Source: Nitrospirota bacterium (GTDB lineage: Bacteria; Nitrospirota; Thermodesulfovibrionia; UBA6902). From it: DNA of 64,000 nt. Position 1 is the first letter of the stretch. Every line of letters starts with the position of its first letter. The stretch is from the NCBI GenBank assembly GCA_016214845.1, contig JACRMS010000032.1:18655-82654 (forward strand), given 5' to 3'. Shown piece after piece: positions 1,028-64,000 of this stretch. Under the pieces are notes generated by a model that ran no database searches, was not told the origin of the DNA, and worked only from the letters and a program-made list of their open reading frames with translations. A program made the translations under genes and the position numbers.

Positions 1028-1813
1028 ATGACCATTCCAGTTTTAAACGCATCTTCACTTCAACGGGTTCTGCCATCCGGCAGGACTAAGCCCTGTATTT
1101 TTTTCTGCGAAGATGAAAGCGGTGATAGCAACGGCGAATATGTTGTTAAGCTCAAAGCAGGAATGGAAAATGGGGTGAACGGTCTTGCGGCTGAACTGAT
1201 TGCATCTCAACTGGCAGCTTTCCTTGATATCCCCACTCCAGAACCTGCTATAATTGAAATAGACCCGTTGCTGGCAGAGGTTATTTCTGATCCTGCTCTC
1301 TCACGGAAAATCAAAGGAAGCTCCGGACCGAATTTCGGCAGCAGGGTGATAACCGGCGGTTTTGAAACATGGCCTGTAGGCAAAGCAATACCTTCAAGTT
1401 TGCGAACATTAGCGGCAGAGATATTCGCCTTTGATGCACTGATACAAAACCCTGATAGAAAGGTTAAAAAGCCGAACATCCTTTGGAAAGGTGACGATTT
1501 ATATATCATAGACCATGAAATGAGTCTGATGTTTATATATGAAATATTGCCGATGCCAACTCCGTGGCAGATAACAAATTTGAACTTTATCAAAGATCAC
1601 TTGTTTTACGAGAATCTGAAGGGGCAGGCAGTGAATCTCGACCGATTTGCCGGGGCACTTGAACTGTTGACTGATAATGCCATGGAAACAATTCTTACAA
1701 ATGTGCCAGAGGATTGGCGAAGCAACAACATATCAAAAATTACAACCCATATCAACGAGATTATGCATCATAGAAATAGTTTCATCGACGAAATAAGGAG
1801 GGCGTTACAATGA
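1028..1813 (+). CDS. HipA-like Ser/Thr kinase family protein (short, catalytic-domain-only form)
   Basis: 261 aa. Catalytic-loop-like FDALIQNPDRKVKKPNILW matches the HipA GNTDxHxKN loop, and a downstream IIDHE resembles the activation motif. RBS AGGGGGAAG lies upstream of the ATG. The stop overlaps the next start (ATGA at 1810-1813). Confidence 0.55.
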   Translation: MTIPVLNASSLQRVLPSGRTKPCIFFCEDESGDSNGEYVVKLKAGMENGVNGLAAELIASQLAAFLDIPTPEPAIIEIDPLLAEVISDPALSRKIKGSSGPNFGSRVITGGFETWPVGKAIPSSLRTLAAEIFAFDALIQNPDRKVKKPNILWKGDDLYIIDHEMSLMFIYEILPMPTPWQITNLNFIKDHLFYENLKGQAVNLDRFAGALELLTDNAMETILTNVPEDWRSNNISKITTHINEIMHHRNSFIDEIRRALQ

Positions 1814-2652
1814 AGATACCTTATAGTTTCTCAATCCTGAGATATATTCACGATATCGTATCAGGTGAGTTCATCAACGTTGGCGTTGTGCTATATGCTC
1901 CTAAGGCGAGATTTCTTAGCACTGTCTGCACGTCAAGATACGGCCGCATTTCAAAAATGTTTTCAAATATAAACGGCGACCACTTCCGACAGGTCTCAAG
2001 ATACATTCAGGCAAGGCTTGAGGAAGAAGGTGAGCGTTTGCTTACTGAACTCCCATTTGAGAAAATGCCGGTTAGTGTGAAAGATTTTACTCCAAAGGTG
2101 TTGCCTATAGATGACAGTTCGCTGCAATTCTCCCCAGAAGGATATGGATTGACGGACAACCTGCAGGAAACTCTTGAACAGATTTATAACCGTTACGTAG
2201 AAAAGTATTATGAAAAAACAGAACGACAAAGCAGAAGCGATGAAGATGTATGGAAGATTTATAAGAGGCCTCTCGAGGAAAAACACGTCATTGCCAGCCT
2301 CAGACCTCACCAGATTATTGGTAACAACTATGATTATGAATTTAAATACTGCTGGAAAAATGAGCGCTGGCATATTCACGAGCCGGTCTCTTTCGATTTA
2401 TTAGAAGCTACTTCTATCACCGACAAAGCAAATACATGGGTAGGACGAATCACGAGCCTGATTGATGGCGGAGAGCTTTTTAAGTTAAATGTTTTGATAG
2501 GGTCTCCGCAGGATGAGAAGTTAAAAGCAGCCTTTATTAAGGCACAAAATATATTAAACAGAATGCCATGCGACCATGAATTTATACGAGAAGAAGAGGC
2601 AGAGGATTTCGCAGAAAGCCTTAAAAAGGAAATTGAGACGCACAAAGCATAA
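1810..2652 (+). CDS. DUF3037 domain protein
   Basis: 280 aa. The N-terminal YSFSILRYIHDIVSGEFINVGVVLYAP matches the conserved DUF3037 N-terminus. Translationally coupled to the upstream kinase-like gene. Confidence 0.6.
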   Translation: MKIPYSFSILRYIHDIVSGEFINVGVVLYAPKARFLSTVCTSRYGRISKMFSNINGDHFRQVSRYIQARLEEEGERLLTELPFEKMPVSVKDFTPKVLPIDDSSLQFSPEGYGLTDNLQETLEQIYNRYVEKYYEKTERQSRSDEDVWKIYKRPLEEKHVIASLRPHQIIGNNYDYEFKYCWKNERWHIHEPVSFDLLEATSITDKANTWVGRITSLIDGGELFKLNVLIGSPQDEKLKAAFIKAQNILNRMPCDHEFIREEEAEDFAESLKKEIETHKA

Positions 2653-6210: not shown

Positions 6211-6333
6211 ATTTGTTGGGAATATTGTATATTGCATGGATTGCTTAATGCAAGAAGGCGAATTGTATTCATCCTTTAACTCTATGCCCTCAGCCCCCTG
6301 CTTTTAAGCGCTGTAACTTGTGTATAATTAGGC

Positions 6334-6747
6334 ATGTTCCCTGTAAGCCCGGAAAAAGAAAAGTCTCTCAAGGCCAAACTCGACAACCTTGGCATTCATG
6401 AAAAGGACATCGAGGAATCGTTCATCCGCTCAGGCGGGCACGGCGGGCAGAATGTCAACAAGGTCGCAACCTGTGTTTATCTAAAACACATCCCAACCGG
6501 TGTTGAGGTCAAATGCCAGAAGGCGCGCACTCAGGGAATGAACCGATATTATGCCCGTGTGCTGCTTTTTGAAAAAGTAGAACGCCTGATAAAAGGCAAG
6601 GAGAGCGAGGAAGAACAACGGATCGAAAAGATCAGGCGGCAGAAACGCAAACGCTCAAAGCGCGCAAAGGAAAAGATGCTTGAAGGGAAACACCTGCAAT
6701 CCATAAAAAAAGAAAAACGTTCTTATCACCCTTCCCGTGAAGAGTAA
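6334..6747 (+). CDS. arfB: Alternative ribosome-rescue factor ArfB (peptidyl-tRNA hydrolase, RF-1 GGQ domain)
   Basis: 137 aa, [15 protein letters not shown] motif, Lys/Arg-rich C-terminal tail. Confidence 0.8.
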
Positions 6748-6762
6748 AATTAAGGCCTGAAT

Positions 6763-7782
6763 TCACTTCGATGTTTCTTCGTAGAACTCCCTTTTCGGCT
6801 GGCCACTCATCAGCCCGAATCTTTTGTAAAGTGATTGCGCGAAAAGAAAGTCCAGGTGTGCGATTGAATCAGGGCGATTGCCAAAGACCTTTTCCCAGAC
6901 ATCCCACCGTTCCATGCAAAGATATACAAGATTGTCTTGTGAAATTTTCCCCCTCAGCGCGCTGTAAATGTGCTTGTACATCTTTACCCGCAGCGGTTTT
7001 ACATACCGCATCTTTGCGTCATCACCCAGTACCATCTCCGCGCAGGTCAGGCGGTTGTCCGGGTAGTTGTTTTCCATCTTCTTTTTCATCTCAGGGTTGA
7101 AGCGGAGGCTGCCGATGGATATCCACGCGACCCTCTCAGGCGATACCGAATCAAAGACCCGGTCCACAAGCCCCGAATATCCTTCTTCCCATCCCTTGTG
7201 AAAGATCATCGGGTCGAAATGCAGGCCGATCAAATAGCCTGCCTTTGAAACCTTGCGCATGGCGTGAAGCCGGTCTTCAAGAGACGCGGTCCTGTGCTCT
7301 TCTGTGTTGATGACGTGATCAGTATTCAGGGACCACGAGACAACCGTCCTTTCATTGTGAGAGATATTTAGTATCGAATCAACGTTGTCTGACTTCGTCT
7401 TTAGTTCAAGAACGGCATTTCCCATTGTGGAAAATTCGCGGATAAGTCTTGCGGCCTGTCCCGTCTCTCCTTCCAGCGCAAGACTGTCGCCAAGCTCCCA
7501 AGTGCCGATGCGGAACAGCCTCTGCGGCTCATTTGCGGTTTTGCTTTTAACCTCTTCCATCAACGCGTCAATATCGTCCACGATCTTTGTCGCGCCGTCG
7601 TTCATATAGTTTTGAAGGAAGCAGTATGAACATTCAAACGGGCAGTTGTGGACGGACTTCAATACATGCACATAACAGCAGAGGTATTTTCTGTTGAACG
7701 TAGCGCACGTGCCCATTGCCTCGCCGTGTTTCGGAATGGGCTTAACTTCCTTTTTCCCGTCTTTATAGTTCAAGGTATTCAT
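6763..7782 (-). CDS. Radical SAM protein of the spore-photoproduct-lyase (SplB) / DNA-repair photolyase-like family
   Basis: 339 aa, CxxxCxxC radical SAM cluster motif (CPFECSYC), SplB-like length and composition. Confidence 0.65.
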   Translation of the reverse strand: MNTLNYKDGKKEVKPIPKHGEAMGTCATFNRKYLCCYVHVLKSVHNCPFECSYCFLQNYMNDGATKIVDDIDALMEEVKSKTANEPQRLFRIGTWELGDSLALEGETGQAARLIREFSTMGNAVLELKTKSDNVDSILNISHNERTVVSWSLNTDHVINTEEHRTASLEDRLHAMRKVSKAGYLIGLHFDPMIFHKGWEEGYSGLVDRVFDSVSPERVAWISIGSLRFNPEMKKKMENNYPDNRLTCAEMVLGDDAKMRYVKPLRVKMYKHIYSALRGKISQDNLVYLCMERWDVWEKVFGNRPDSIAHLDFLFAQSLYKRFGLMSGQPKREFYEETSK

Positions 7783-7794
7783 GGTTGTTTAAGA

Positions 7795-7880
7795 ACCCCC
7801 TCTCCCTTACCCTCTCCCGCAAGGGGCGAGGGAACTAACTTATCTCCCCTCCCTTGACGGGAGGGGATTAAGGGGAGGGT
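7795..7880. repeat. C/G-tract mirror repeats forming GC hairpins and a canonical G-quadruplex motif on the minus (sense) strand, about 16 nt upstream of the SplB-like start codon
   Basis: Plus strand cccctctcccttaccctctccc...ctcccctccc ttgac gggaggggat. The minus-strand reading GGGAGAGGGTAAGGGAGAGGGGG gives G3N3G3N3G3N3G3+. There is a 10-bp perfect hairpin TCCCCTCCC/GGGAGGGGA. Confidence 0.5.
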
Positions 7881-7890
7881 GTTAATATTC

Positions 7891-8862
7891 TCAAAGCTCA
7901 TCCAGTATTTCCTCCACCGCCTTCTTCGTTTCAGTCGAGTTCAAAGTACTTAGCAGCGCTGCCAGCTTTTTGAAATCCTGCACATGGACAACGATGTCCA
8001 CATTTTTATTCTCCAGCGTCCTGTCCCAGTTAATAGATACAGCCTGCGGAAGCTTAAGGCCCTCAACCGTCTTCTGCATCCTCGCGTTTGTCTCGGAAAG
8101 GGTGGGGAACCGTTTTGTATAAATAAGCTGACGCAGCCTTTCAGTCCTGTCGCGGGGGCTTAGTGAAGACCTGATTATCTCCTGGACATCAGGCCCATCG
8201 AGAAAATCATTGATGGTCTTGTTTTGCATCCTGAGGTGATCTTTTAAATTTGAGGCGATCTCATCAAGTGTAGAGGCGGTCAATTGCAGTATCGGCTTCC
8301 ACGCCATCAACTGTAAGAGTATGTCCATAGGATAGGAAGTTAAATTGAGTATCTGTTTCAGGGAGTATTTTTTTTCGTGGCAGAAGGATTTTAATTCTGC
8401 AGGCAAATCGTTCATGCGCTCGCAGTCCCGCAGGAATTCACTGTACGGTTTAAAACTGAATTGAATGCAGAGGAAATTCAGTATCCACGATTCAGGCGCT
8501 TTGAGATAAAGTGCGAAACAGATAAAGCGGACTTTGTTCATAATGCTTTGCTCAATCTCAAGCCTCTTATCACAGAGGATTAAGGTAATGATGTCTGTAA
8601 CCGGCGTAGCCTCCGGCAGGACGATTGCGCTGACTGTTTGGATCTGGTTCTGCCTTGCGAAATGAATCCGCTTCCTTCCGTCAATCAGATGAAGTTTTCC
8701 GTCTTTATCTCTGTAAAGAATAACCGGATGAAGTATGCCAAGATTTTTCAAAGAATCTTCAAGAGAGGTTTCAATGCTGTTTGATTCAACGAGGAGATCT
8801 TTCAGCGAAAAACGGCTTTGCTCAACGAGGACGTCTTTGACATTTATATTTTGGACTGACAT
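7891..8862 (-). CDS. ParB N-terminal (ParB/Srx nuclease-like) domain protein, otherwise uncharacterised
   Basis: 323 aa. LGILHPVILYRDKDGKLHLIDGRKRIHFARQ matches the ParB N-terminal GxxRxxA box. The remaining ~230 aa are unassigned. Confidence 0.5.
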   Translation of the reverse strand: MSVQNINVKDVLVEQSRFSLKDLLVESNSIETSLEDSLKNLGILHPVILYRDKDGKLHLIDGRKRIHFARQNQIQTVSAIVLPEATPVTDIITLILCDKRLEIEQSIMNKVRFICFALYLKAPESWILNFLCIQFSFKPYSEFLRDCERMNDLPAELKSFCHEKKYSLKQILNLTSYPMDILLQLMAWKPILQLTASTLDEIASNLKDHLRMQNKTINDFLDGPDVQEIIRSSLSPRDRTERLRQLIYTKRFPTLSETNARMQKTVEGLKLPQAVSINWDRTLENKNVDIVVHVQDFKKLAALLSTLNSTETKKAVEEILDEL

Positions 8863-8870
8863 GAAATATT

Positions 8871-10340
8871 TTACACCATCTCTTTCCGATATTTACTCAT
8901 GGAAGCGAGCATCTCCCTGCACTTCTCCGCCTCTTGAGTTTTCTTCCTCTTCTCATATCCCTTGGTAAGTATATTCAGCTTCCTTGTAAGGACGTCGATG
9001 ATCTTTTCTCTGAATTCGGGATGCGGCTCGTTCTCTAATAGTTTCATTAATGATCTGGCCCTGAACATATCCATTGCGGGATACTTCCGCGAAAGCTGGT
9101 CCTCGTGACCGCCGTATTTAATGACGGACAAACCGGGCTCAAGCCCGACCGGGTGATGCCTTGATATCTTTAACCACAAGTCATAATCCTCACACACTAA
9201 AAGGCCCTCATCAAATAATCCGTAACGTTCAAGCAGGGATCTCTTTACAAGAACTCCTGATGGCGAGACAAGACATCTCTCAAGGGATTGCTCCCATATC
9301 CAGCCTTCCGGCTTTTTGTGATGCATGCAGGGATTAACACGCACGCCGTTTCTTATCCACATTTCCTCCGATTGCAGGATTTGATAAAAAGGACATCTCG
9401 TGAGATATGCGATCTGGTTTTTCAGTTTGTCTTTTTCCCAGCAGTCATCGGAATCCAGAAAAGCAATCCACTCTGTCTTTGCGTATTTGACACCTTCATT
9501 TCTTGCCCTTGACGGCCCTGAGTTTTCGGACAGGAAAACGCAGGTCAGCTTATCGCCGTAGCTTTTCAGTATCTCCTGCGTGCCGTCGGTGGAACAGTCG
9601 TCAACAACGATGATCTCTTCAGGTTGCAGTGATTGAGACAGTATGGAATCAATTGCACGCCTGATTGTATGCGGCCGGTTGTGGACAGGAATAATAACGG
9701 TCACTCTGTGATCGTCCCTGATAAAGCTGAAAAGCTTTTTTACCTCTCCGGCGAAAAGTTCAACGTTCCTGTTGAAATCGGAGAAGGTGTTATGGTCTGA
9801 ATGGTCAGTGCTGAATTTCAGGCAGTGGAAGCTGATCTTAGCATCATGAAATACCTTTGCCTGCGCATAACATTCCATATCGATCGCCTCGTGTCCTTTC
9901 AATGATTCGGGCAGATCATTTATTGAAGGCTTCATGACGCTGATCAGCGAGCGGACATTTATCATCTTTTCAGGATGCGGAACAGGAAGCCTCGTGTCTA
10001 ACTTCAGCATGTCGCCTTCTTCATTTGCGACATGCTCAGGAATTAGCCATTTGCCAAGCGGGTATTTTTTATTTATTACACCGCATGTGCCGATGTTAAA
10101 GACGAACAGTGGATTCAGGTTATCACGCACATAGCGCGCGGCCTCTTCGCTTGCCTTATAACCTGCGCCGGTTATTACAACCATAATTCCCGATGAACTG
10201 CGCTGATCAAGCGCCCCTGCCTTAAGGGCTGTAAGAGTGTGTACGGGAATGCCGCGAGATGCAAGCCAGTCTTTCGGGACCTCTTTTTTCAGGGCAGCGG
10301 TGATGATGAGTTTGAAAGATTGGGATGTCAGTTTTGTCAT
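8871..10340 (-). CDS. Fusion protein: N-terminal PNP_UDP_1 (MTA/SAH-nucleosidase-like phosphorylase) domain + C-terminal family-2 glycosyltransferase domain
   Basis: N-terminal ITGAGYKASEEAA...IDMECYA nucleosidase-like. C-terminal VIIPVHNRPHTIRRAIDSILSQS...LDSDD (GT2 DxD). The ATG at 10340 overlaps the bpt stop (ATGA); an alternative ATG is at 10364. Confidence 0.6.
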   Translation of the reverse strand: MTKLTSQSFKLIITAALKKEVPKDWLASRGIPVHTLTALKAGALDQRSSSGIMVVITGAGYKASEEAARYVRDNLNPLFVFNIGTCGVINKKYPLGKWLIPEHVANEEGDMLKLDTRLPVPHPEKMINVRSLISVMKPSINDLPESLKGHEAIDMECYAQAKVFHDAKISFHCLKFSTDHSDHNTFSDFNRNVELFAGEVKKLFSFIRDDHRVTVIIPVHNRPHTIRRAIDSILSQSLQPEEIIVVDDCSTDGTQEILKSYGDKLTCVFLSENSGPSRARNEGVKYAKTEWIAFLDSDDCWEKDKLKNQIAYLTRCPFYQILQSEEMWIRNGVRVNPCMHHKKPEGWIWEQSLERCLVSPSGVLVKRSLLERYGLFDEGLLVCEDYDLWLKISRHHPVGLEPGLSVIKYGGHEDQLSRKYPAMDMFRARSLMKLLENEPHPEFREKIIDVLTRKLNILTKGYEKRKKTQEAEKCREMLASMSKYRKEMV

Positions 10341-11074
10341 TGTCCCTTTAAGTGGTCCTGCCATTGATCATTCCTGTAGATCTGGTTGGGACGGAAAAAC
10401 TTTTTATAGCGCATCTTCGGATTTTCTTCTATATAAAATCCAAGATAGAGATATTTCTTCCCCATTTCCCGCGCGAGGTAAATTTCCTGGATAATGCTGA
10501 ACACGCCGGGCCTCCTGTCAAGATGATCAGTGTCATAGTAAAAGTAATTGGACGAAAGCGAATCCTCTGCCTCATCAACGATCCCTACAGCTATAAGCTT
10601 TTCCCCGCAGTAATAATCCATTTCGATTATGTGATCGTAACCTGAATGCATTGCAAGAAGAAAAGGCAGGGGACTGCGTGTTTCTTCTTTCTTGTCATCC
10701 TTATGCTTCACGGCTATGTATTTATCGTAAAGCGCGACCTTCTCCGGGGTGATGGACGGTCTTGGTTGGACTTCCACACGGATGTCTTTATTTTTACCGA
10801 GGGTCCTTTTCTGGCTTCTGCTCAATTGAAATTTTTCAGCTTCAATATGCAGGGGGATGCAGGCTGAACATGCCTTGCAGACATTGCGGTAAAATACGCT
10901 CCCGATACGCCTGTACCCTTTTGACAGAAGCTCGTGAAAGTTATGGCTGCGCTTCTTTGCGGGGATGAAATATTCTGTTGAAGATATTCTTCCGTCATCG
11001 AAGTACGGGCAGGGGGAATCCTCTGTGAATAAAATCTCGGTGTCTGTCCTTTGCTTTAACTGGTTCTCCGTCAC
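10337..11074 (-). CDS. bpt: Arginyl-tRNA--protein transferase-family enzyme (bacterial Bpt, aspartate/glutamate leucyltransferase)
   Basis: 245 aa. ATE_N and ATE_C signatures (DSPCPYFDDG, CKACSACIPLHIE). Confidence 0.7.
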   Translation of the reverse strand: MTENQLKQRTDTEILFTEDSPCPYFDDGRISSTEYFIPAKKRSHNFHELLSKGYRRIGSVFYRNVCKACSACIPLHIEAEKFQLSRSQKRTLGKNKDIRVEVQPRPSITPEKVALYDKYIAVKHKDDKKEETRSPLPFLLAMHSGYDHIIEMDYYCGEKLIAVGIVDEAEDSLSSNYFYYDTDHLDRRPGVFSIIQEIYLAREMGKKYLYLGFYIEENPKMRYKKFFRPNQIYRNDQWQDHLKGQ

Positions 11075-11226
11075 ATGTTTATTTTACAGCAATCCGGCGT
11101 CTTGAAGTCTTGTCCTGCAATCAATATAATATAACCGGCTCTTGGGAAGAAATTTCAAATCTTGTCTTTAAAAACTTTTCACCCCCATTCGGGGGAACAC
11201 ATATCTTTTGAGGGGAGAATATTGTT

Positions 11227-12849
11227 ATGAGGGGACATCGTATCACTTTAGTTGCGGCAGTATGTTTTTTTCTTCATCTTTCAACATCAACAATCCACGC
11301 AGGTATCGAAGAGAAAATCTGGAAGGATGTAAGCAGCGGTATCAGCGATCCGGGACTGCAAAGAGCGGCGATTGGTCGTGACAATGCGGACACCGTTTAC
11401 GTCAGCTCTGCCCATGCTGTTTATAAAACTTCAAATGGCGGGGAAAAATGGGTGGAGATTTTCAGAAGCACCGTAAACATTGTAAATGCCGTTGCCGTAG
11501 ATCCAGGTAATTCAATGACTGTATTTATTGGAACTCAGGAAGGGCTGTATAAAAGCAAAAACGGCGGGAAGAGTTGGGAAAGGGTATTCAGGGGGGTCGC
11601 GGAGCTTGAGAATTTTGTTCTTTCAATCGCTGTTCATCCTGAACTTTCCGGTGTTGTATATATCGGCACAGACTCCGGGATCTACCGGACGGGTAATTTT
11701 GGAAATGAGTGGACAAAGCTGCGGAGCCTGCCTGAAGAATCCGCGGCGGCTTCTATTATTATTGACCCCTCCGGGCCGGGAAAAATTTACGCTGCAACAG
11801 ACAAAGGGCTTTTTAAAAGTATCAACAACGGTATCGATTGGCAGAGAATCCTTGTGAAGATCTCATCTGAAAATGAGGAGGTGCAGTCAATTGTTGATGA
11901 GGCGATAGAGGCCGATGAACTTAAAGGCGAGACAAAGATAAGAAGCATTGCCGTTGATACATCCGACAATAAAATAATTTACGCCGGCACAACAGCAGGC
12001 CTTTTAATCACCACAGATGAAGGCGCAACATGGAATGCGGCAGGCAGGTCGGGGTTGACCAGCCGTGATATACGCTATCTCGCAGTCAGTTCAAAAGACC
12101 CTGACAGCATTTATGCGGCAACTGGCAGGGGAGTATTCGCGTATTCAAAAACATCCAAAAGCTGGAACGAGCTTTATAGCGGTATGATTTCTCAAGACGC
12201 GCGTTATCTCGCGGTCGCTTCAAATCCCCAGGACCATAATATAACTCTGTGGGCGGTGACAAAAAATGGAGTGTATAAAACATCAGCGAAACAGGATGCC
12301 GGCCCCGCGGGCGATGGGGTGAAGACCGAAAATGTCCTTTCTAAATTTGCGTATGAACCCTCAATAGAGGAGATCAGGGAGGCTGCCATAATGTATGCCG
12401 AGGTGCAACCAGATAAAATAAATGAATGGAGAAAGGCGGCGGCGGCCAGGGCTTTGCTGCCGCAATTAAGGTTTGAATACCAGAAGAATATCGATTGGCA
12501 GAAGGAAGACCATTTCTACGATAGCGACCATAAAATAGATGATTTTACCAGCACTGATGACAAGGCATGGTCTGTCTCTGTCACATGGGAGCTTGGTGAC
12601 CTTGTATGGAATGATTCCCAGACCTCAATCGATGCAAGGTCAAGGCTTATGGTCCAGTTAAGGGATGACGTCCTGAATGAGGTCACGAGGCTTTATTTTG
12701 AGAGAAGGAAATTGCAGATAGCCATGCTCCTTTCGCCTACCGCAGAGATCAATGAAAAGATCGAAAAAGAACTCCGCCTGCAAGAACTGACAGCGGACAT
12801 TGACGCCATGACAGGCTCATATCTTTCAAAAAGACTCAATAAACAGTAA
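11227..12849 (+). CDS. Secreted BNR/Ycf48-like repeat protein with uncharacterised ~170-aa C-terminal domain
   Basis: Signal peptide; six SxxxGxxW-type BNR repeats (TSNGGEKW, SKNGGKSW, TGNFGNEW, SINNGIDW, TTDEGATW, SKTSKSW). Confidence 0.6.
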   Translation: MRGHRITLVAAVCFFLHLSTSTIHAGIEEKIWKDVSSGISDPGLQRAAIGRDNADTVYVSSAHAVYKTSNGGEKWVEIFRSTVNIVNAVAVDPGNSMTVFIGTQEGLYKSKNGGKSWERVFRGVAELENFVLSIAVHPELSGVVYIGTDSGIYRTGNFGNEWTKLRSLPEESAAASIIIDPSGPGKIYAATDKGLFKSINNGIDWQRILVKISSENEEVQSIVDEAIEADELKGETKIRSIAVDTSDNKIIYAGTTAGLLITTDEGATWNAAGRSGLTSRDIRYLAVSSKDPDSIYAATGRGVFAYSKTSKSWNELYSGMISQDARYLAVASNPQDHNITLWAVTKNGVYKTSAKQDAGPAGDGVKTENVLSKFAYEPSIEEIREAAIMYAEVQPDKINEWRKAAAARALLPQLRFEYQKNIDWQKEDHFYDSDHKIDDFTSTDDKAWSVSVTWELGDLVWNDSQTSIDARSRLMVQLRDDVLNEVTRLYFERRKLQIAMLLSPTAEINEKIEKELRLQELTADIDAMTGSYLSKRLNKQ

Positions 12850-59123: not shown

Positions 59124-60008
59124 GTGCTATTCTATGAAGCGCTGATGATAAATACCGTCGAAGATATTAAAAAGCTGTTTGAAAGCCTGGAGGCCGTGCT
59201 CGGGGCCATCGGAAACGGGATCAGTATACAGGACATTTCCCTCAGGATACTGTACCAGAACAGCATTCACAAAAATCTGACCGGGGACCATGCCGGTGAG
59301 TGTTGTTTCAGCGCGTACAAAAAAAGGGACTGTGCCTGTGAAGACTGTCCGGTTGTGAAGGCGTTTAGTGACGGCGGCATCCACTCCGTGAAAAGAAGCG
59401 CCCCTGTAAACGGGGAGATGAGACACTTTGAAATTATTGCTTCGCCGTTAAAAGATTCCGAAGGAAATATAATCGCCGGGATAGAGATATTGCATGACAT
59501 AACTGAATTCAGGGAAACAGTGGAGGCCCTTGAGGAATCGCAAAAGAAATACCGCGCCCTTGTCGATACAGCCCTCGTTGGAATATTCAAGACAAATACC
59601 GGAGGCGATATCCTGTATGTCAATGATGCGTTGATAACGATGTTTGAATTTAATTCCGCTGAAGAGCTGATGCGGGAAAAGGTGGTTATAAGATATAAGG
59701 ACCCGAGCGACAGGAATGTCTTTATTGAAGGACTGAGGCAGAATGGACGGGTACAGGGATTTGAAACCAGGCTGATTACAAAAACCGGCAAGAACAAAAA
59801 TGTATTAGTGGATGCGGCGCTGGACGGAGACATGATTTCAGGGGTGCTGATGGATATCACCGACCGGATTGAGCTTGAACATTCGCTCCAGGAGAGGTTG
59901 AAAGAGCTTCAAGACTTTTATGACATGGCTGTCGGCAGGGAAATGAAGATGGTGGACCTTAAGAAAGAGGTCGCCAGGCTGAAGGAAGAATTGGAGAAAT
60001 ACCGTTGA
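59124..60008 (+). CDS. Tandem PAS-domain protein with no output domain (C-terminal coiled coil)
   Basis: Two PAS-like blocks with a Cys cluster (CCFSAYKKRDCACEDC) in the first. The ORF-track start is a GTG; an ATG lies at 59145. Confidence 0.55.
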   Translation: MLFYEALMINTVEDIKKLFESLEAVLGAIGNGISIQDISLRILYQNSIHKNLTGDHAGECCFSAYKKRDCACEDCPVVKAFSDGGIHSVKRSAPVNGEMRHFEIIASPLKDSEGNIIAGIEILHDITEFRETVEALEESQKKYRALVDTALVGIFKTNTGGDILYVNDALITMFEFNSAEELMREKVVIRYKDPSDRNVFIEGLRQNGRVQGFETRLITKTGKNKNVLVDAALDGDMISGVLMDITDRIELEHSLQERLKELQDFYDMAVGREMKMVDLKKEVARLKEELEKYR

Positions 60009-60068
60009 CCAAGTGAAACAATTTCGGGGAGGGATTTTTCCCTCCCCGAAAAGCAGTTTTTTACTAAC

Positions 60069-62732
60069 TTACGGAGTTGTTACAAACACCACGTTGGACC
60101 AGGCGGAATTACCAACAGCGTTTGTCGCGCGAACCCGGTAATAGAAGTTGAATATGCGCAATACATTCTGATTGAATGTTGTCACGTTGGCTCCAACGTT
60201 ATACGTTGTTGGAGCGGCAAAGCCCGGAGTAAGTGAGCGTTGAATCGTAAAACCGGCCTCGTTGTTGGCATTGTCCGTCCAGTTGAGGGAGACCCTGTCC
60301 TGCAATAAGTTGCCGGCAATCCGTACCGCCGCGCCCCTCAGTCCCGTCGGCGCCGCCGGAGTAAAGAAATTCACGACAGCGATGTTCGAGGCTGCGGAAG
60401 AACCGAGGGCGTTCAGTGCGGTCACATAGTACCGATACGTGGTGCCCGCCACCAACGGATTGGCTGCTGTGTCGTTGTTGTTGAACGTCACGTTACCGCC
60501 TGTTGCCGCGGACTGGGCAGCGGTGCGGTTCACTGTTCCGACTTGGGAGAAGACGCCGCCGTTAGCGGAGCGCCAGACCACAAAGCTCGTCTCATTGTTG
60601 GATGCGTCGATCCAGGTCAGTCTGATTTGTGTAGCTGAAATGATCACTGCCGCCAGGTTTGTCGGCGCTACGGGGCCGGCCGGCATGGTGACCGACACGG
60701 TGTTGGAGGGCGTCGAATCCATGGTTACGGTCGGGAAGCCGACTGCAGGAGCAGCGTAAATCTCAGTATCGCCCACGGTATTATTAGCAAACACCCTGTA
60801 GTAATATGTCGTGGCACCCGACACCGTCGTATCCGTGAAGGTGGTCAAGAGGGGATCCACGGTGAAGCTCATGAGGTTGGCTGTGAAGAGGGAATCCGTG
60901 GCCCTCTGGATGGTGAACCCCGTATCATTGATTGAGTTGTCCAACCAGTTCAGGTCGACCCGAAGTCCCGGTCCTGAAATAGCCGTCAGACCTGTCGGCG
61001 CCACCGGCGCCACTGCAAACGCCAGCGAATGCATCATGTCCATCTCTTCATGGGCGAGAATGTGGCAGTGCCACACGTACTCCCAGCCAAAGTTTACTTC
61101 GTGGTTGTAGATCGCCGGGATCGCGTTTCCCTCTGGGTCGAACCATCCTGCTGGTGCAGGCGCGACCAGCGGGACGCCCGGAGGCAACGTCGGGTCAATC
61201 AGGCGGACGCTGTTAGGCACATCGAATGGGACCATTGCCGGCGTCGGTATGGTCGGTCTCATTGCGAGGTACGTGACCTCCAGCGGGTTGATCCTGAAGG
61301 TGTCTTTCCAACCCAGCTCGGTAGGGTCTGGCGGCAGCATAATCCCGTCTTGGCCCGTGCGGTTGATGAGCTGTGAGTTAAACAGGTGTGTGTGTATGGT
61401 GTGTGTATCCACGCCATTATGGAAGATTCTCCAGAGCTGAGTGCCATCGGGAAGAACTCCAATTTGACTCCCGGATACCGAGCCTTTGATGATATCGACG
61501 GGAGGGCTTGCAAAGCCGTAGGGTATCAAGGTATGGACTGGGGAGGTCAGGCTGGCGAGTCCCAGCATCCCGCTCATACGGCCGAACTGGGTGTCATAGA
61601 CGCCGCCCATCTCGTCATGCATTGCTTTCATCTCCAGCGGTATCGTTACAGCAGGCTGAAGAACCCCTGATTCGTTGATAGGCTGAAAGGTCTTCTGTGT
61701 ATCGGCAAGCTGCACGTATTGGCTCGCGCTGGCCGATGGGAAATTCGTCACGTTGTAAGCCGACTGATAAACTTTCTGCGGAATGATGATCGGATCCTCG
61801 GAGACCTCGAAGACGCCCCTCTTCGCTACTGTCTTAGCGAACACTGCGTTGAGATTCGCAAGAGTAACGTCAGGTGTGGTTGTAGTTAAGGGCAAGTTTA
61901 CCCTGATTTGCATGATAGTGCGGGTGTTGGGACCATAGCCGGGCTGCGTGGCGGGCGCGCCGCCCGTATCCATTTGGTTAGGCGTGCCAGTGTAGTAGTC
62001 GTAGTTCGTGACACCCGCCGGTAAAGGCGCAGGGGCATCGTTGTAGAGAATGAGTGTTTTGCCGGCGTAGGCGGAGAAGTCAACTACGACATCGGCCCGT
62101 TCCGCTGTTCCGAGAAGAAGTGAGTGCTGATTGACATTGCCGAAATTGAATGTTGTTGGGTTAAGGTTCCAGCCGACCGGTTGGCTGGGTACTACAACAG
62201 GCTTCGGCAGGAAGCCGCCTTCGGTGCCGATCTGAATCCAGTCCGGTCCTTTTGTCGCCGGATCGGGAATGCCGCTTGGCGTGTCCGCATATTGGTTCGC
62301 GGGTGCCACACCAACCGGGACCATCTTGACCTCTGTGCAGTTGGCAACCGGTGCAGCTCCATCGCACAACACCGTGCCGATAGTGCCGGGTGTTGTCGGC
62401 GTTGTCTTGTCAGCAGCTACATAGAGCTGCAGGTTTACCATACGGTCATCGCCGGCATTCAGGATGCGGAACCGGTAGGCCTTAGGCTCAACCTCCAAGT
62501 ATGGGTAGGCGGTGCCGTTGACAACCGGTGTGTCCATAAAGGCTTCGCCCGCCATAGAAGGGTTAGGCGTCCTGGTATGCAAGGAGGCTCCCATTGCGCT
62601 GCGCTGCAGTCGAATGCATCTGGCTCGGTGGTGCCGTTCAGAGTGCAGGTCGTCGGCGGCTGCGGGAGACAGTAAGGGTTTGGAACTGGTCCTACCTCGA
62701 TGCACCCCACCGGGAGCCCGTTGTTGTCGCAC
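60069..62732 (-). pseudogene. Multicopper oxidase, C-terminal part (cupredoxin domains with type-1 Cu site HCHxxxH...M) followed by three fibronectin-III-like repeats; continuous with 62459-64000 only through a frameshift
   Basis: HEVNFGWEYVWHCHILAHEEMDMMHS; three repeats beginning P(V/A)APTxL...L(N/T)W...NETGF. Overlaps the upstream ORF in another frame over 62459-62732. Confidence 0.6.
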
Positions 62733-64000
62733 ACGGGGGTCGGCTGAATGAACCAGGGACCATAGTGCCAGCGGCCGAAGGCATTAGTGCCGGTAACGTC
62801 CCACGGATTCTGGGCCGACATATAGACATGGGGATACCAGAGGTCCCCGGTATTAGGAACCGGCGGCGTTGTTCCCCAATTCCATGTAGGGTCCTGAGCG
62901 GCGATTGTAGTAGCGTCTACGAAGGTCCTGTCCATAATGACAAGTGGAATCCCAAGGTCAGGAAGGACCTTTAAATTATTCGGGTTTACTCCGGACAGGT
63001 TAGTCCCCTTGATCATGTCCTGCTCGACTTGGTCCGTCACAAGGTAACCCGCGGCCTCGCCCGCATATACATTGAGACGAGTGATGCCAAAAGAATGGTC
63101 GTGGTAGAACATCAACCTTGCGCTCTGAGCGTTGGTATAGTAGAAAGTCAGTGCTCCGGGTTCGGGATTCGGCATGTCGGGAACGTTACTCGCGCTTACG
63201 CCCTTAGGGTACGGGGTGTTTTCACCAGCCGGTGTTGTCCACTGGTGGGCCGTCCCATCACTGATCCATACAGTATTGTTGCCGTGGAGGTGGACGGTGG
63301 CGCGGTTCTGTGTATACATTTCACAGGACGTACCAGGTATCATCGGATCACAGTCCAGGCCCATGGCGTCCTTCGGGCCCATCCCGGACCCCATTACGGT
63401 AGTATCTACCGGCAGGAAGAGGTCTCCGCCGGAACCGGTGGGAAGCAGGTTATAAAATTTCAGGCGGACAGGCACACCCGGCTGACCTGGAATGCTGCCA
63501 CTTGCAACAATAACGGGTCCGAGAGAATGAGGGTAATCAACAGCGATAGCCTGAGAAAGGTCAGGCTTCAAAATCGGAGTGCCGTCCGGGTTTGTCAGAG
63601 TAATATGCTTGCTCACCCCAAAGTTATTCGGTGTCTCTAATTGCACGTAGCCCCGAAGTCTGGTCGGCGGCAGGTCAGAGTGCATTTTCTCCTCATACTC
63701 GACCAGGGCGATTTCGTAATAGTCAGAACCGGCGTAGGTCGTAGTATCGGCAACAGCAATCGGGATGTGCTGTCCGAGGGGGTCACCGCCAGGCGTCACA
63801 AGGCCGTTAGCTCCGGCAGACGTGAGACCCGGAAGTTTGTCTATGAATTTTCTGATGCCGCCGGTTAGAGGGCCGCCTATTGTTGCCGAAGCTATGGCGT
63901 CTGTGCCCGTCGCATCCGTAATGGTGACGGCAGGAGCGCTATACCCCGTGCCTCCGGTGTTGACCGTGATGGCGGTAATGACGCCGCCTACAACCGTTGC
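62459..64000 (-). pseudogene. Multicopper oxidase, N-terminal part (partial; reading frame open to the window edge)
   Basis: HLHGNNTVW and MFYHDHSFGIT copper-ligand motifs. No in-frame stop from 63799 to 64000, and the ORF-track 'start' at 63799 is an internal GTG. Confidence 0.6.

What the first reader, a model, noticed from the sequence alone, without database searches (positions are those of the whole stretch)
8871..10340. Single polypeptide fusing an MTA/SAH-nucleosidase-type phosphorylase domain to a GT2 glycosyltransferase
Nucleoside phosphorylase/nucleosidase domains release a base and generate (phospho)ribose, while GT2 enzymes transfer sugars from nucleotide-sugars. A covalent fusion suggests channelled chemistry, such as trimming a nucleoside-conjugated intermediate and then glycosylating it. 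This recalls the HpnG/HpnI or MqnB logic, but no hopanoid or futalosine genes are nearby. I do not know of a characterised fused enzyme of this kind.
Basis: partly seen in the sequence, partly recalled or inferred. Interest (0 to 1): 0.5.

Follow-up and report, generated by a model that had tools for sequence, protein, structure and literature searches.

The report
Conserved nucleosidase–glycosyltransferase fusion enzyme
This gene encodes a real, widely conserved two-in-one enzyme: an adenine-nucleoside-cleaving domain joined to a sugar-transferring domain. It belongs to an uncharacterised gene module that also holds a ParB-like protein and a radical SAM enzyme, so it probably marks an undescribed pathway.

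Summary

The GT2 half is a widespread standalone family (at least 599 genome loci). It recurs next to a standalone nucleosidase, a ParB/Srx-like protein, a spore-photoproduct-lyase-like radical SAM enzyme, and often an SDR. In the window the ParB-like and radical SAM genes lie directly downstream.

No member is characterised, and none passes a curated equivalog threshold. My best reading is inferred: consecutive tailoring of a 5'-deoxyadenosyl-derived compound from the radical SAM partner, by adenine removal and then glycosylation. This follows HpnH/HpnG/HpnI-like logic with non-orthologous parts. By-product (5'-dA) clearance and a DNA-directed role remain live rivals.

The parts
8871..10340 (-). 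CDS of the nucleosidase-GT2 fusion. It is 489 aa from the ATG at 10340. An alternative upstream ATG at 10364 gives 497 aa, and residue numbers in this report use the 497-aa frame.
   Evidence: ORF list. ATGA overlap with the upstream gene's stop. Homologue N-termini. Identical protein P0001 in public MAGs.
9717..10340 (-). N-terminal MTA/SAH-nucleosidase-type domain (NP-I fold), residues about 9-216.
10281..10283 (-). Glu28, equivalent to MTAN Glu12 (water-activating residue), within the ALKKEVP motif.
   Evidence: Alignment to 4g89 and to MTANs. Invariant in 29 fusions and at least 90% conserved in fused plus standalone forms. Translation check.
9873..9881 (-). Asp162-Met163-Glu164, equivalent to the MTAN EME motif (Met173/Glu174, ribose binding).
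   Evidence: Met163 and Glu164 are invariant in alignments A1 and A2. Translation check.
9804..9818 (-). KFSTD. Lys183 sits at the position of MTAN Arg193, and Asp187 equals MTAN Asp197 (the general acid that protonates adenine N7).
   Evidence: Asp187 is invariant in A1 and A2, and Lys183 is invariant in A1. Translation check.
8871..9716 (-). C-terminal GT2 (GT-A fold) glycosyltransferase domain plus a helical basic tail, residues about 217-497, with the stop codon.
9444..9455 (-). DSDD (Asp304-Asp307), the GT2 DxD metal and nucleotide-sugar binding motif.
   Evidence: Invariant in A1. Aligned to the DSDD of CgT 5hea. Translation check.
9186..9194 (-). Cys391-Glu392-Asp393, part of the family signature [VA]CEDYDLW. 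This is the usual position of the catalytic base (ED motif) in inverting GT2 enzymes.
   Evidence: Invariant in A1. Used as a family pattern in the genome scan. Translation check. The catalytic-base role rests on general GT2 knowledge, not on a test here.
9090..9119 (-). KYGGHEDQLS, the second family-specific signature (KYGGHxDQL) of this GT2 family.
   Evidence: Invariant in A1. Used as a pattern. Translation check. In the AF2 model it lies in a low-confidence loop, 413-429.
7891..8862 (-). ParB/Srx-fold protein (323 aa) with an HTH-type middle region and a family-specific C-terminal domain. It starts 9 nt after the fusion's stop codon and is a conserved module partner ('c3').
6763..7782 (-). 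Radical SAM enzyme of the spore-photoproduct-lyase superfamily (339 aa; cluster motif C47-x3-C51-x2-C54). It is a conserved module partner ('c1').
   Evidence: Pfam SPL 103.5 bits. TIGR04070 120.6 bits against a cut-off of 400. phmmer hit to G. thermodenitrificans SPL 4fhg, E 2.2e-19. Found in the locus of 20 of 76 GT2 loci.
10337..11074 (-). Arginyltransferase (ATE/Bpt family), the upstream gene in the same strand run. It is translationally coupled here but is a lineage-specific neighbour and probably not part of the module.
   Evidence: NF002346 208.3 bits, above its 170 cut-off. The same neighbour occurs only in L002. In L001, truB takes this position.

Best explanation
Shown: the gene encodes a bifunctional enzyme. 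The N-terminal domain is an MTAN-type adenine-nucleoside N-ribosidase with the full hydrolase constellation: Glu28, Met163/Glu164, Asp187, and Lys183 in place of MTAN Arg193. The C-terminal domain is an intact GT2 glycosyltransferase (Asp256, DSDD 304-307, Glu392-Asp393). The pair is an old, diversified fusion. Elsewhere the same two proteins are encoded by adjacent genes. The GT2 is the hub of a conserved module with a ParB/Srx-like protein, an SPL-superfamily radical SAM enzyme and often an SDR.

Inferred, and the mechanism I commit to: the two domains catalyse consecutive tailoring steps on a 5'-deoxyadenosyl-derived compound generated by the radical SAM partner. The nucleosidase removes adenine to expose a (5-substituted) ribosyl unit. 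Where an SDR is present it may reduce that unit to a polyol. The GT2 domain then adds a sugar from a nucleotide-sugar. This is the logic of HpnH, HpnG and HpnI in hopanoid side-chain synthesis, built from non-orthologous parts. In genomes where the module lacks its own nucleosidase, a housekeeping MTAN would do that step.

The identity layer (real, bifunctional, module member) deserves about 0.9. The confidence given below applies to the specific mechanism.
For: Identity:
- Domains and fold.
- Catalytic residues aligned to MTAN and conserved: with coordinates checked.
- Fusion conserved: (72 of 150 cluster representatives).

Functional linkage of nucleosidase and GT2:
- Of 76 GT2 loci, 34 carry a nucleosidase-type gene. 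By my reading of the per-locus tables, it is fused in 10 and is an adjacent same-strand gene in about 18, upstream in Calditrichia, Lentisphaeria and Marinimicrobia and downstream in Gamma- and Alphaproteobacteria.
- The nucleosidase travels with the GT2 even where no radical SAM gene lies within about 10 kb (L009, L016, L022, L025, L011, L002). This argues for shared chemistry with the GT2 and against a mere helper role for the radical SAM enzyme.

Linkage to the radical SAM enzyme:
- An SPL-like gene is present in 20 of 76 GT2 loci across phyla.
- In the reverse scan, 23 of 39 SPL-like loci with enough upstream sequence carry the GT2 and 33 of 39 carry the ParB-like gene.
- An SDR lies just downstream of the radical SAM gene in many loci.

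Precedents:
- HpnH adds adenosyl, the PNP homologue HpnG removes adenine, and HpnI later glycosylates (PMC13459092).
- GT2 enzymes that glycosylate the ribose of adenosine-type nucleosides and tolerate 5' changes exist: AvpGT, NucGT and ScaGT (PMC11959488). AvpGT is among the sequence and fold hits.
- C. jejuni MTAN is the best fold match. That it also hydrolyses aminodeoxyfutalosine is from my own knowledge.
Against: - No substrate is identified, and nothing here shows that the SPL-like enzyme adenosylates anything. The one characterised member of its superfamily (SPL) uses 5'-dA radical for H-abstraction on DNA.
- The nucleosidase is facultative in the module: 6 of 39 SPL-like loci and 34 of 76 GT2 loci.
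- About half of the GT2 loci show none of the partners within the sequence fetched.
- A ParB-type partner with an HTH region fits a DNA-directed system better than a small-molecule pathway.
- The conserved Met163/Glu164/Asp187 set is equally what an ordinary 5'-dA/MTA/SAH nucleosidase would have.
- Neighbourhood counts rest on crude ORF calling and on the 80 best-scoring loci per scan, so they are samples, not censuses.
Confidence: 0.35

Rival explanations
1. By-product clearance. The nucleosidase domain is simply a dedicated 5'-deoxyadenosine/MTA/SAH nucleosidase that relieves product inhibition of the SAM-consuming partner, the SPL-like radical SAM enzyme. The GT2 acts on a different molecule in the same pathway. 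The fusion only ensures co-expression and stoichiometry.
For: - MTAN-type residues, including the Met173 equivalent, are conserved.
- The best fold matches are housekeeping MTANs.
- The nucleosidase is dispensable in most versions of the module, as expected if a housekeeping Pfs can substitute.
- That radical SAM enzymes are inhibited by 5'-dA and that MTAN relieves this is established knowledge, not tested here.
Against: - The nucleosidase is fused or adjacent to the GT2, not to the radical SAM gene.
- It accompanies the GT2 in loci with no radical SAM gene within about 10 kb (L009, L016, L022, L025, L011, L002).
- It forms its own subfamily, far below MTAN equivalog cut-offs (TIGR01704 23.7 against 73.8 for a standalone member), with an Arg193-to-Lys change and a shorter core. 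This suggests an altered specificity.
Confidence: 0.27
2. DNA-directed system. The ParB-like protein and the SPL-like radical SAM enzyme act on DNA, either repairing a lesion or making a radical modification of a pyrimidine. The GT2 glycosylates the resulting DNA base or lesion, as in base J or phage glucosyl-hmC. The nucleosidase removes the 5'-dA that is generated.
For: - The tightest pair in the module is the ParB-like and SPL-like genes (33 of 39 loci).
- The ParB-like protein matches the ParB N-domain plus the HTH DNA-binding region (E 3.1e-13).
- The radical SAM enzyme's only characterised relative repairs DNA.
- The GT2 acceptor loop carries invariant basic residues His349 and Lys351.
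Against: - There is no hit to any defence or modification model (PADLOC).
- The flanks are housekeeping genes: guaA, purA, serA, truB, clpX.
- The fusion is absent from plasmids and phages.
- No restriction or nuclease partner is present.
- A short form of the ParB-like protein that lacks the ParB N-domain serves in some lineages (c21).
- The fold of the ParB N-domain equally matches small-molecule kinases (free serine kinase, SbnI) and sulfiredoxin.
- An SDR partner is hard to place on DNA.
- SPL's H-donor Cys140 is replaced by Glu in the window's protein.
Confidence: 0.15
3. Unusual-sugar salvage for a glycan. The nucleosidase converts a SAM by-product (MTA or 5'-dA) into a 5-substituted pentose, and the GT2 eventually transfers it onto a lipid carrier or envelope polymer. 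This resembles the methylthioxylose cap of mycobacterial lipoarabinomannan.
For: - PMC11127046 states that the MTX donor pathway starts from 5'-methylthioadenosine, and that it is unclear whether the reaction exists elsewhere.
- The best GT2 hits include enzymes acting on Und-PP-glycans and poly-ribitol-phosphate: TuaG, WcaA, PglI, TarS, TarP.
- The basic amphipathic C-terminal tail could bind a membrane (sequence).
- An SDR/epimerase-like partner is present.
Against: - No kinase or nucleotidyltransferase is present to activate the free sugar, and no GT-C, flippase or other envelope-glycan genes recur in the neighbourhoods.
- This reading does not explain the ParB-like and radical SAM partners.
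- The enzyme make-up of the MTX cluster is from my memory only, because the primary paper was not available.
Confidence: 0.1
4. Artefact or degenerate scaffold. Either the fusion comes from misassembly or a lost stop codon, or the N-domain is a catalytically dead structural appendage.
For: Only the weak, partial Pfam PNP_UDP_1 hit (33 bits, aa 60-118) could suggest degeneration.
Against: - An identical and a near-identical protein occur on independent 196-kb and 152-kb contigs, and more than 120 homologues exist.
- 72 distinct 50%-identity clusters carry the fusion.
- The MTAN profile match is full length and the catalytic residues are invariant.
- The two-domain model is confident (pTM 0.85).
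Confidence: 0.01

Closest known systems
Hopanoid side-chain enzymes HpnH (radical SAM), HpnG (PNP-superfamily adenine-removing enzyme) and HpnI (GT2)
   Same: The same three enzyme classes appear in one pathway: a radical SAM step, removal of adenine by a PNP_UDP_1-fold enzyme, and later glycosylation by a GT2, with a reduction of ribose to a polyol in between (PMC13459092). Here an SDR is a frequent module member. HpnG is the only nucleosidase-type NCBIfam model that the fusion hits.
   Different: - The fusion is not orthologous: HpnG 26.9 bits against a cut-off of 187.1, HpnB 30.9 against 379.
- The radical SAM partner belongs to the SPL superfamily, not the HpnH family.
- No squalene-hopene cyclase or other hpn genes lie nearby.
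- A ParB-like protein has no counterpart in the hopanoid pathway.
- In the hopanoid pathway the enzymes are separate proteins.
MTA/SAH nucleosidase (MTAN/Pfs), including the dual-function aminodeoxyfutalosine nucleosidases of Campylobacter and Helicobacter, and futalosine hydrolase MqnB
   Same: - Full-length profile match, 88.8 bits.
- The Glu12, Met173/Glu174 and Asp197 equivalents are conserved.
- Like MqnB, it would process the product of a radical SAM enzyme.
   Different: - It is a separate subfamily, below all curated cut-offs.
- Arg193 is replaced by Lys, and the core is about 25 residues shorter.
- It is fused to, or encoded next to, a GT2.
- No mqn genes lie nearby.
Nucleoside-specific GT2 3'-O-glycosyltransferases AvpGT, NucGT and ScaGT
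   Different: Identity is only about 22-25%. Those enzymes are stand-alone proteins from Streptomyces natural-product clusters. Acceptor-site residues were not compared, so a nucleoside acceptor for this GT2 is only a possibility.
Arsenosugar cluster: radical SAM ArsS plus the TIGR04283 GT2
   Same: A radical SAM enzyme that makes a 5'-deoxyadenosyl adduct is genomically linked to a small soluble GT2, and adenine must be removed on the way to the riboside product. This pathway outline is from my own knowledge. TIGR04283 is one of the few models that aligns across the whole GT2 domain (61.6 bits; 66.9 bits for a standalone member).
   Different: The score is far below the 182-bit cut-off. The radical SAM family differs. 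No ars genes are nearby.
Methylthioxylose (MTX) capping pathway of M. tuberculosis lipoarabinomannan
   Same: A SAM by-product, 5'-methylthioadenosine, is turned into a sugar that is eventually transferred to a glycan (PMC11127046). The involvement of a PNP-type enzyme, an epimerase/SDR and a GT2 is from my memory.
   Different: That pathway needs a polyprenyl-phosphate carrier and a GT-C enzyme, neither of which is seen here. It has no radical SAM or ParB-like component. The primary paper could not be read.

Membership tests
MTA/SAH nucleosidase (MTAN) clade of the PNP_UDP_1 / NP-I superfamily | NP-I alpha/beta fold | tested here: met
   [not shown]
MTA/SAH nucleosidase (MTAN) clade of the PNP_UDP_1 / NP-I superfamily | Catalytic residues Glu12, Glu174 (with Met173) and Asp197, plus Arg193 | tested here: met
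   E28, M163/E164 and D187 align to these positions. They are invariant in 29 fusions. M163, E164 and D187 are also invariant across fused and standalone forms, and E28 is at least 90% conserved. Arg193 is conservatively replaced by invariant Lys183.
MTA/SAH nucleosidase (MTAN) clade of the PNP_UDP_1 / NP-I superfamily | Score above the curated equivalog thresholds (TIGR01704, NF004079) | tested here: not met
   No MTAN model appears among the 25 listed of the fusion's 33 NCBIfam hits. A standalone family member scores 23.7 against 73.8 (TIGR01704) and 42.4 against 169 (NF004079). It is therefore a related but separate subfamily.
MTA/SAH nucleosidase (MTAN) clade of the PNP_UDP_1 / NP-I superfamily | Hydrolysis of MTA, SAH or 5'-dA to adenine plus the ribose derivative | not testable with these tools
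   This needs an enzyme assay.
HpnG (hopanoid-associated phosphorylase, TIGR03468) | Score above the 187.1-bit cut-off | tested here: not met
   26.9 bits, aa 45-192.
HpnG (hopanoid-associated phosphorylase, TIGR03468) | Genomic association with shc/hpnH and other hpn genes | tested here: not met
   None lie within about 10 kb in the window, and none recur in the 80 genome loci. Whole genomes were not examined.
Futalosine hydrolase MqnB (TIGR03664) | Score above the 124.7-bit cut-off and association with mqn genes | tested here: not met
   The model is not among the 25 listed of the fusion's 33 hits. Standalone members score 30-40 bits. No mqn genes appear in the neighbourhoods.
Glycosyltransferase family 2 (GT-A fold, Pfam PF00535) | Pfam gathering threshold and GT-A fold | tested here: met
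   [not shown]
Glycosyltransferase family 2 (GT-A fold, Pfam PF00535) | DxD metal/nucleotide-sugar motif and an acidic catalytic-base motif | tested here: met
   DSDD 304-307 and E392-D393 are invariant. The DSDD aligns with that of CgT 5hea. Coordinates were verified.
Named GT2 equivalogs (TuaG, MftF, TIGR04283 arsenosugar GT, WcaA, EpsD, HpnB and others) | Score above the curated cut-off | tested here: not met
   The best hit is TuaG at 110.2 bits against 400. MftF scores 81.7 against 280, and TIGR04283 scores 61.6 against 182. No equivalog applies.
Nucleoside 3'-O-glycosyltransferases (AvpGT/NucGT type) | Close sequence relationship and a shared nucleoside-binding pocket | tested here: inconclusive
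   [not shown]
Spore photoproduct lyase (for the partner gene 6763..7782) | Radical SAM CxxxCxxC motif and SPL-family fold or profile | tested here: met
   C47-x3-C51-x2-C54 is present. Pfam SPL scores 103.5 bits against 27. phmmer hits 4fhg at E 2.2e-19.
Spore photoproduct lyase (for the partner gene 6763..7782) | Equivalog score (TIGR04070 at 400, TIGR03886 at 437) and the H-donor Cys140 | tested here: not met
   The scores are 120.6 and 49.1 bits. Three further module members also fall far below the cut-offs. Glu96 sits at the Cys140 position. It is a third, uncurated SPL-like subfamily.
ParB/Spo0J/Noc (for the partner gene 7891..8862) | ParB N-terminal (ParB/Srx) domain plus HTH DNA-binding domain | tested here: met
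   [not shown]
ParB/Spo0J/Noc (for the partner gene 7891..8862) | Intact CTP-binding GERRxRA box and ENLQR box; curated thresholds | tested here: inconclusive
   The motif is D61-G62-R63-K64-R65 with D61, G62 and R65 invariant. The second box is degenerate (alignment). Pfam ParB_N scores 21.2 against 26.3, and TIGR00180 scores 15.7 against 58.45.

The most novel reading that the evidence does not exclude
The four-gene unit (nucleosidase-GT2, ParB-like protein, SPL-like radical SAM enzyme, with or without an SDR) is a chromosomal, oxygen-independent DNA-directed system. The ParB-like protein loads the SPL-like enzyme on DNA. Radical chemistry on a pyrimidine creates a handle or an adenosyl adduct. 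The fusion enzyme then trims and glycosylates it, giving a base-J-like glycosylated DNA base, or a repair intermediate, in diverse and largely uncultured bacterial lineages.
Probability: 0.1. Interest if true: 0.9.

Novelty: new variant of a known kind. Interest (0 to 1): 0.55.

Why it matters
Both halves belong to well-known superfamilies, but this subfamily pair is uncharacterised, whether fused or adjacent, and no curated model names it. Public records call the protein only 'glycosyltransferase'.

The Rosetta-stone link, together with the conserved ParB-like and SPL-like radical SAM partners, defines a module present in many phyla, including Nitrospirota, Desulfobacterota, Binatia, Calditrichia, Lentisphaeria and Gamma- and Alphaproteobacteria. 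Its product is unknown.

Solving it could reveal one of three things:
- a new use of the 5'-deoxyadenosyl unit as a building block, which would be a further adenosylating radical SAM lineage besides HpnH, MqnE and ArsS;
- a first function for the many SPL-like enzymes found in bacteria outside the spore-forming groups;
- or, less likely, an anaerobic route to glycosylated DNA.

It also gives a concrete, expressible target for assays: a soluble 55-kDa enzyme with two assayable activities.

Tried and rejected
1. A single-sequence phmmer search of the N-domain against the PDB gave only E = 1.4. A family profile was needed.
2. PADLOC gave no defence-system hit for any of the four genes.
3. Plasmid and phage collections returned only generic GT2 hits at 32-41% identity, with no fusion. 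A mobile-element or defence reading was therefore rejected.
4. Five literature searches for any description of the fusion or module found nothing relevant. The library lacks most subscription papers, and Angala 2017 could not be read.
5. The apparent 610-aa 'fused' SPL-like ORF in L017 is an ORF-calling artefact in G+C-rich DNA. Only residues 258-609 match the SPL profile.
6. The upstream arginyltransferase (here and in L002) and truB (in L001) were considered as functional partners. They were rejected because the upstream neighbour varies.
7. Promoter and terminator scans across 6300-11400 were at chance level, so they give no operon boundaries.
8. AFDB Foldseek was not available.
11. I could not inspect model coordinates, so the geometry between the two active sites (channelling) was not tested.
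Full report
**1. Observation**

The window holds an uninterrupted minus-strand ORF at 8871..10364 (497 aa). Its ATG overlaps the TGA of the upstream arginyltransferase gene as ATGA, and most homologues start at that position. So 8871..10340 (489 aa) is probably the real CDS.

Pfam finds Glycos_transf_2 (124.7 bits, aa 222-324) and a weak partial PNP_UDP_1 match (33.1 bits, aa 60-118). NCBIfam finds no equivalog. The best GT2 model is TuaG at 110 bits against a cut-off of 400, and the only nucleosidase-type model is HpnG at 26.9 against 187.

**2. Is the fusion real?**

Yes. An identical protein is on record from a 196-kb contig, and an 89%-identical one from a 152-kb contig of another Nitrospirota MAG. 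More than 120 full-length relatives (57-100% identity, about 480-520 aa) were listed.

I searched 1.84 billion cluster representatives with the N-domain alone. This gave 164 hits at E <= 1e-3. Of the best 150, 72 also carry a C-terminal GT2 domain that matches the family HMM, 65 of them above 230 bits. The other 78 are mostly standalone proteins of about 180-245 aa.

N-domain identity among the fusions falls to about 25%, so the fusion is old and diversified. Misassembly is excluded.

**3. Are both halves functional?**

A profile of 18 N-domains, fused and standalone, matches MTA/SAH nucleosidase structures over their full length (E 2.9e-24). Aminodeoxyfutalosine nucleosidases, DeoD-type PNPs, CT263 and AMP nucleosidase score lower.

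In these alignments Glu28 matches MTAN Glu12, Met163/Glu164 match Met173/Glu174, and Asp187 matches Asp197. Lys183 takes the place of Arg193. All are invariant in 29 fusions. Met163, Glu164 and Asp187 are also invariant across fused and standalone forms. The N-terminal motif is ALKKE, which resembles MTAN's AMEEE. I recall the corresponding DeoD-type PNP motif as GDPxR, so I read the domain as a hydrolase-type nucleosidase. That reading is an inference.

The GT2 half keeps Asp256, DSDD 304-307, Glu392-Asp393 and two family signatures, [VA]CEDYDLW and KYGGHxDQL (coordinates verified).

**4. Context: the main new finding**

It showed that the GT2 half is a widespread standalone protein of about 275 aa at 45-50% identity. 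It occurs in Desulfobacterota, Gamma- and Alphaproteobacteria, Binatia, Nitrospina, Calditrichia, Lentisphaeria, Fidelibacterota, Omnitrophota, Spirochaetes and others.

I clustered the ORFs of the 80 best loci plus the window and then ran profile searches. Among 76 GT2 loci:
- A nucleosidase-type gene is present in 34. By my reading of the per-locus tables, it is fused in 10 and is an adjacent same-strand gene in about 18.
- The 203-aa 'c5' form lies upstream in Calditrichia, Lentisphaeria and Marinimicrobia. The 274-aa 'c2' form lies downstream in Gamma- and Alphaproteobacteria.
- Both forms hit nucleosidase, futalosine-hydrolase, HpnG and MTAN models, all below cut-off.
- An SPL-like radical SAM gene is present in 20 loci, and a ParB-like gene ('c3', or its short form 'c21') in about 16.

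The recurrent order is [nucleosidase]-GT2-[ParB-like or nucleosidase]-radical SAM-[SDR].

In the window the fusion is followed after 9 nt by the ParB-like gene (7891..8862). After a 108-nt spacer comes the SPL-like gene (6763..7782).

For the reverse test I scanned metagenomes with an alignment of the SPL-like proteins. Of 39 loci with at least 2.5 kb upstream, 33 have the ParB-like gene (nearly always directly upstream), 23 have the GT2, and 6 have the nucleosidase. About ten have an SDR just downstream.

The hierarchy is therefore: the ParB-like and SPL-like genes form the tightest pair, the GT2 joins them next most often, and the nucleosidase and SDR are the least constant. On the GT2 side, the nucleosidase follows the GT2 even in loci with no radical SAM gene within about 10 kb.

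The flanking genes are housekeeping and variable: arginyltransferase, truB, guaA, purA, serA, clpX. There are no PADLOC hits and no plasmid or phage copies.

**5. The partners**

The radical SAM protein has the CxxxCxxC motif. It matches Pfam SPL (103.5 bits) and G. thermodenitrificans SPL (E 2.2e-19). It lies far below the SPL and SPL-family equivalog cut-offs, as do three other module members. It has Glu at the position of SPL's H-donor Cys140. It is an uncurated third SPL-like subfamily.

The fold alone does not decide between a DNA-clamp role and a kinase or regulator role. Some lineages use a short form that lacks the ParB N-domain.

**6. Mechanism**

*Shown:* this is a bifunctional enzyme with two intact active sites. 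It is genomically and physically coupled, and it is embedded in a conserved module with a radical SAM enzyme.

*Inferred, my preferred reading (0.35):* the module tailors a 5'-deoxyadenosyl-derived compound. The radical SAM enzyme supplies it. The MTAN-like domain removes adenine. An SDR, where present, may reduce the ribosyl unit. The GT2 adds a sugar. This parallels HpnH, HpnG, an unidentified reduction step, and HpnI (PMC13459092). It agrees with known GT2 enzymes that glycosylate adenosine-type riboses (PMC11959488). It also explains why the nucleosidase is tied to the GT2 and not to the radical SAM gene.

*Rivals:*
- Plain 5'-dA/MTA/SAH clearance for the SAM-consuming partner (0.27). This fits the canonical MTAN residues and the facultative presence of the nucleosidase.
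- A DNA-directed repair or modification system (0.15). This fits the ParB-like and SPL-like pair, but fits poorly with the SDR, the housekeeping context and the short ParB-less forms.
- An MTX-like unusual-sugar route (0.10).
- Artefact (about 0.01).

**7. Comparison and novelty**

The protein works like an MTAN plus a GT2 but is a member of no curated family. The HpnG, MqnB, MTAN, TuaG, MftF and TIGR04283 thresholds are all missed.

I found no paper describing the fusion or the module, within the limits of the held library. Public records name it only 'glycosyltransferase'.

I rate it a new variant of a known kind: known folds in an uncharacterised, conserved combination that points to an undescribed pathway.

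**8. Caveats**

- Neighbourhood counts come from simple longest-ORF calling, and from the 80 best-scoring loci of each scan.
- The metagenome loci were selected by similarity to the window's radical SAM protein, so Nitrospirota-like forms are over-represented near the top.
- Whole genomes were not available, so unlinked partners and housekeeping pfs genes could not be scored.
- Model coordinates could not be inspected, so active-site geometry and channelling were not tested.

Noticed in passing
window 1028-1813 (+) and 1810-2652 (+): A HipA_2-like kinase gene (Pfam 79.6 bits) overlaps by 4 nt with a DUF3037 gene (65.2 bits). This looks like a coupled two-gene pair of unknown role, possibly toxin-antitoxin-like.
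   Followed up: no
window 7783-7890: The 108-nt spacer between the ParB-like and SPL-like genes holds a G+C-rich near-perfect palindrome (arms CCCTCCC/GGGAGGG around a short centre, within CCCTCCCGTCAAGGGAGGGG at 7846-7865). It is the only copy in the window and none is expected by chance. A second imperfect G+C-rich repeat follows. It could be an intra-operon hairpin or a REP-like element.
   Followed up: partly
window 6763-7782 (-); alignment A4: The SPL-like radical SAM protein and its non-proteobacterial relatives carry an extra Cys motif (C26-x8-C35-C36; consensus CPxxxxYxCC) just upstream of the CxxxCxxC motif. They have Glu96 where SPL has the H-donor Cys140. Proteobacterial members lack the extra Cys motif.
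   Followed up: partly
L013, L015, L031, L040 (Syntrophobacterales and related loci): In these loci the GT2 is preceded by a 583-aa IspH(LytB)-UbiA prenyltransferase fusion protein. A dihydrouridine synthase gene and/or a 304-aa PNP_UDP_1 gene on the opposite strand lie further upstream in most of these loci. The IspH-UbiA fusion is unusual in itself.
   Followed up: no
L058, L059, L063, L069 (Binatia and delta-proteobacterial MAG loci): A CoxG/SRPBCC ligand-binding protein (Pfam COXG 95.9 bits) directly precedes the GT2. A short ParB-less form of the partner protein follows the GT2, and then the radical SAM gene. This hints at a hydrophobic ligand in those lineages.
   Followed up: no
L008, L010, L011: In the most divergent fused forms (36-38% identity; SI072 bins and a 'Rickettsiales' MAG), the fusion is preceded by a DeoC/LacD-family class I aldolase gene and an IscA-type Fe-S assembly gene. 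No ParB-like or SPL-like gene is nearby.
   Followed up: no
window 20000-42000 and 60000-64000: G+C rises to 0.52-0.57 in these stretches, against 0.44-0.49 in most of the rest of the window. The cause was not examined.
   Followed up: no
window 11227-12849 (+): This gene is divergently transcribed from the arginyltransferase gene. It encodes a 540-aa BNR/Sortilin-Vps10-type beta-propeller protein with a signal-peptide-like N-terminus. It partly matches the F510_1955 glycosylhydrolase family (119 bits, below the 175 cut-off).
   Followed up: no
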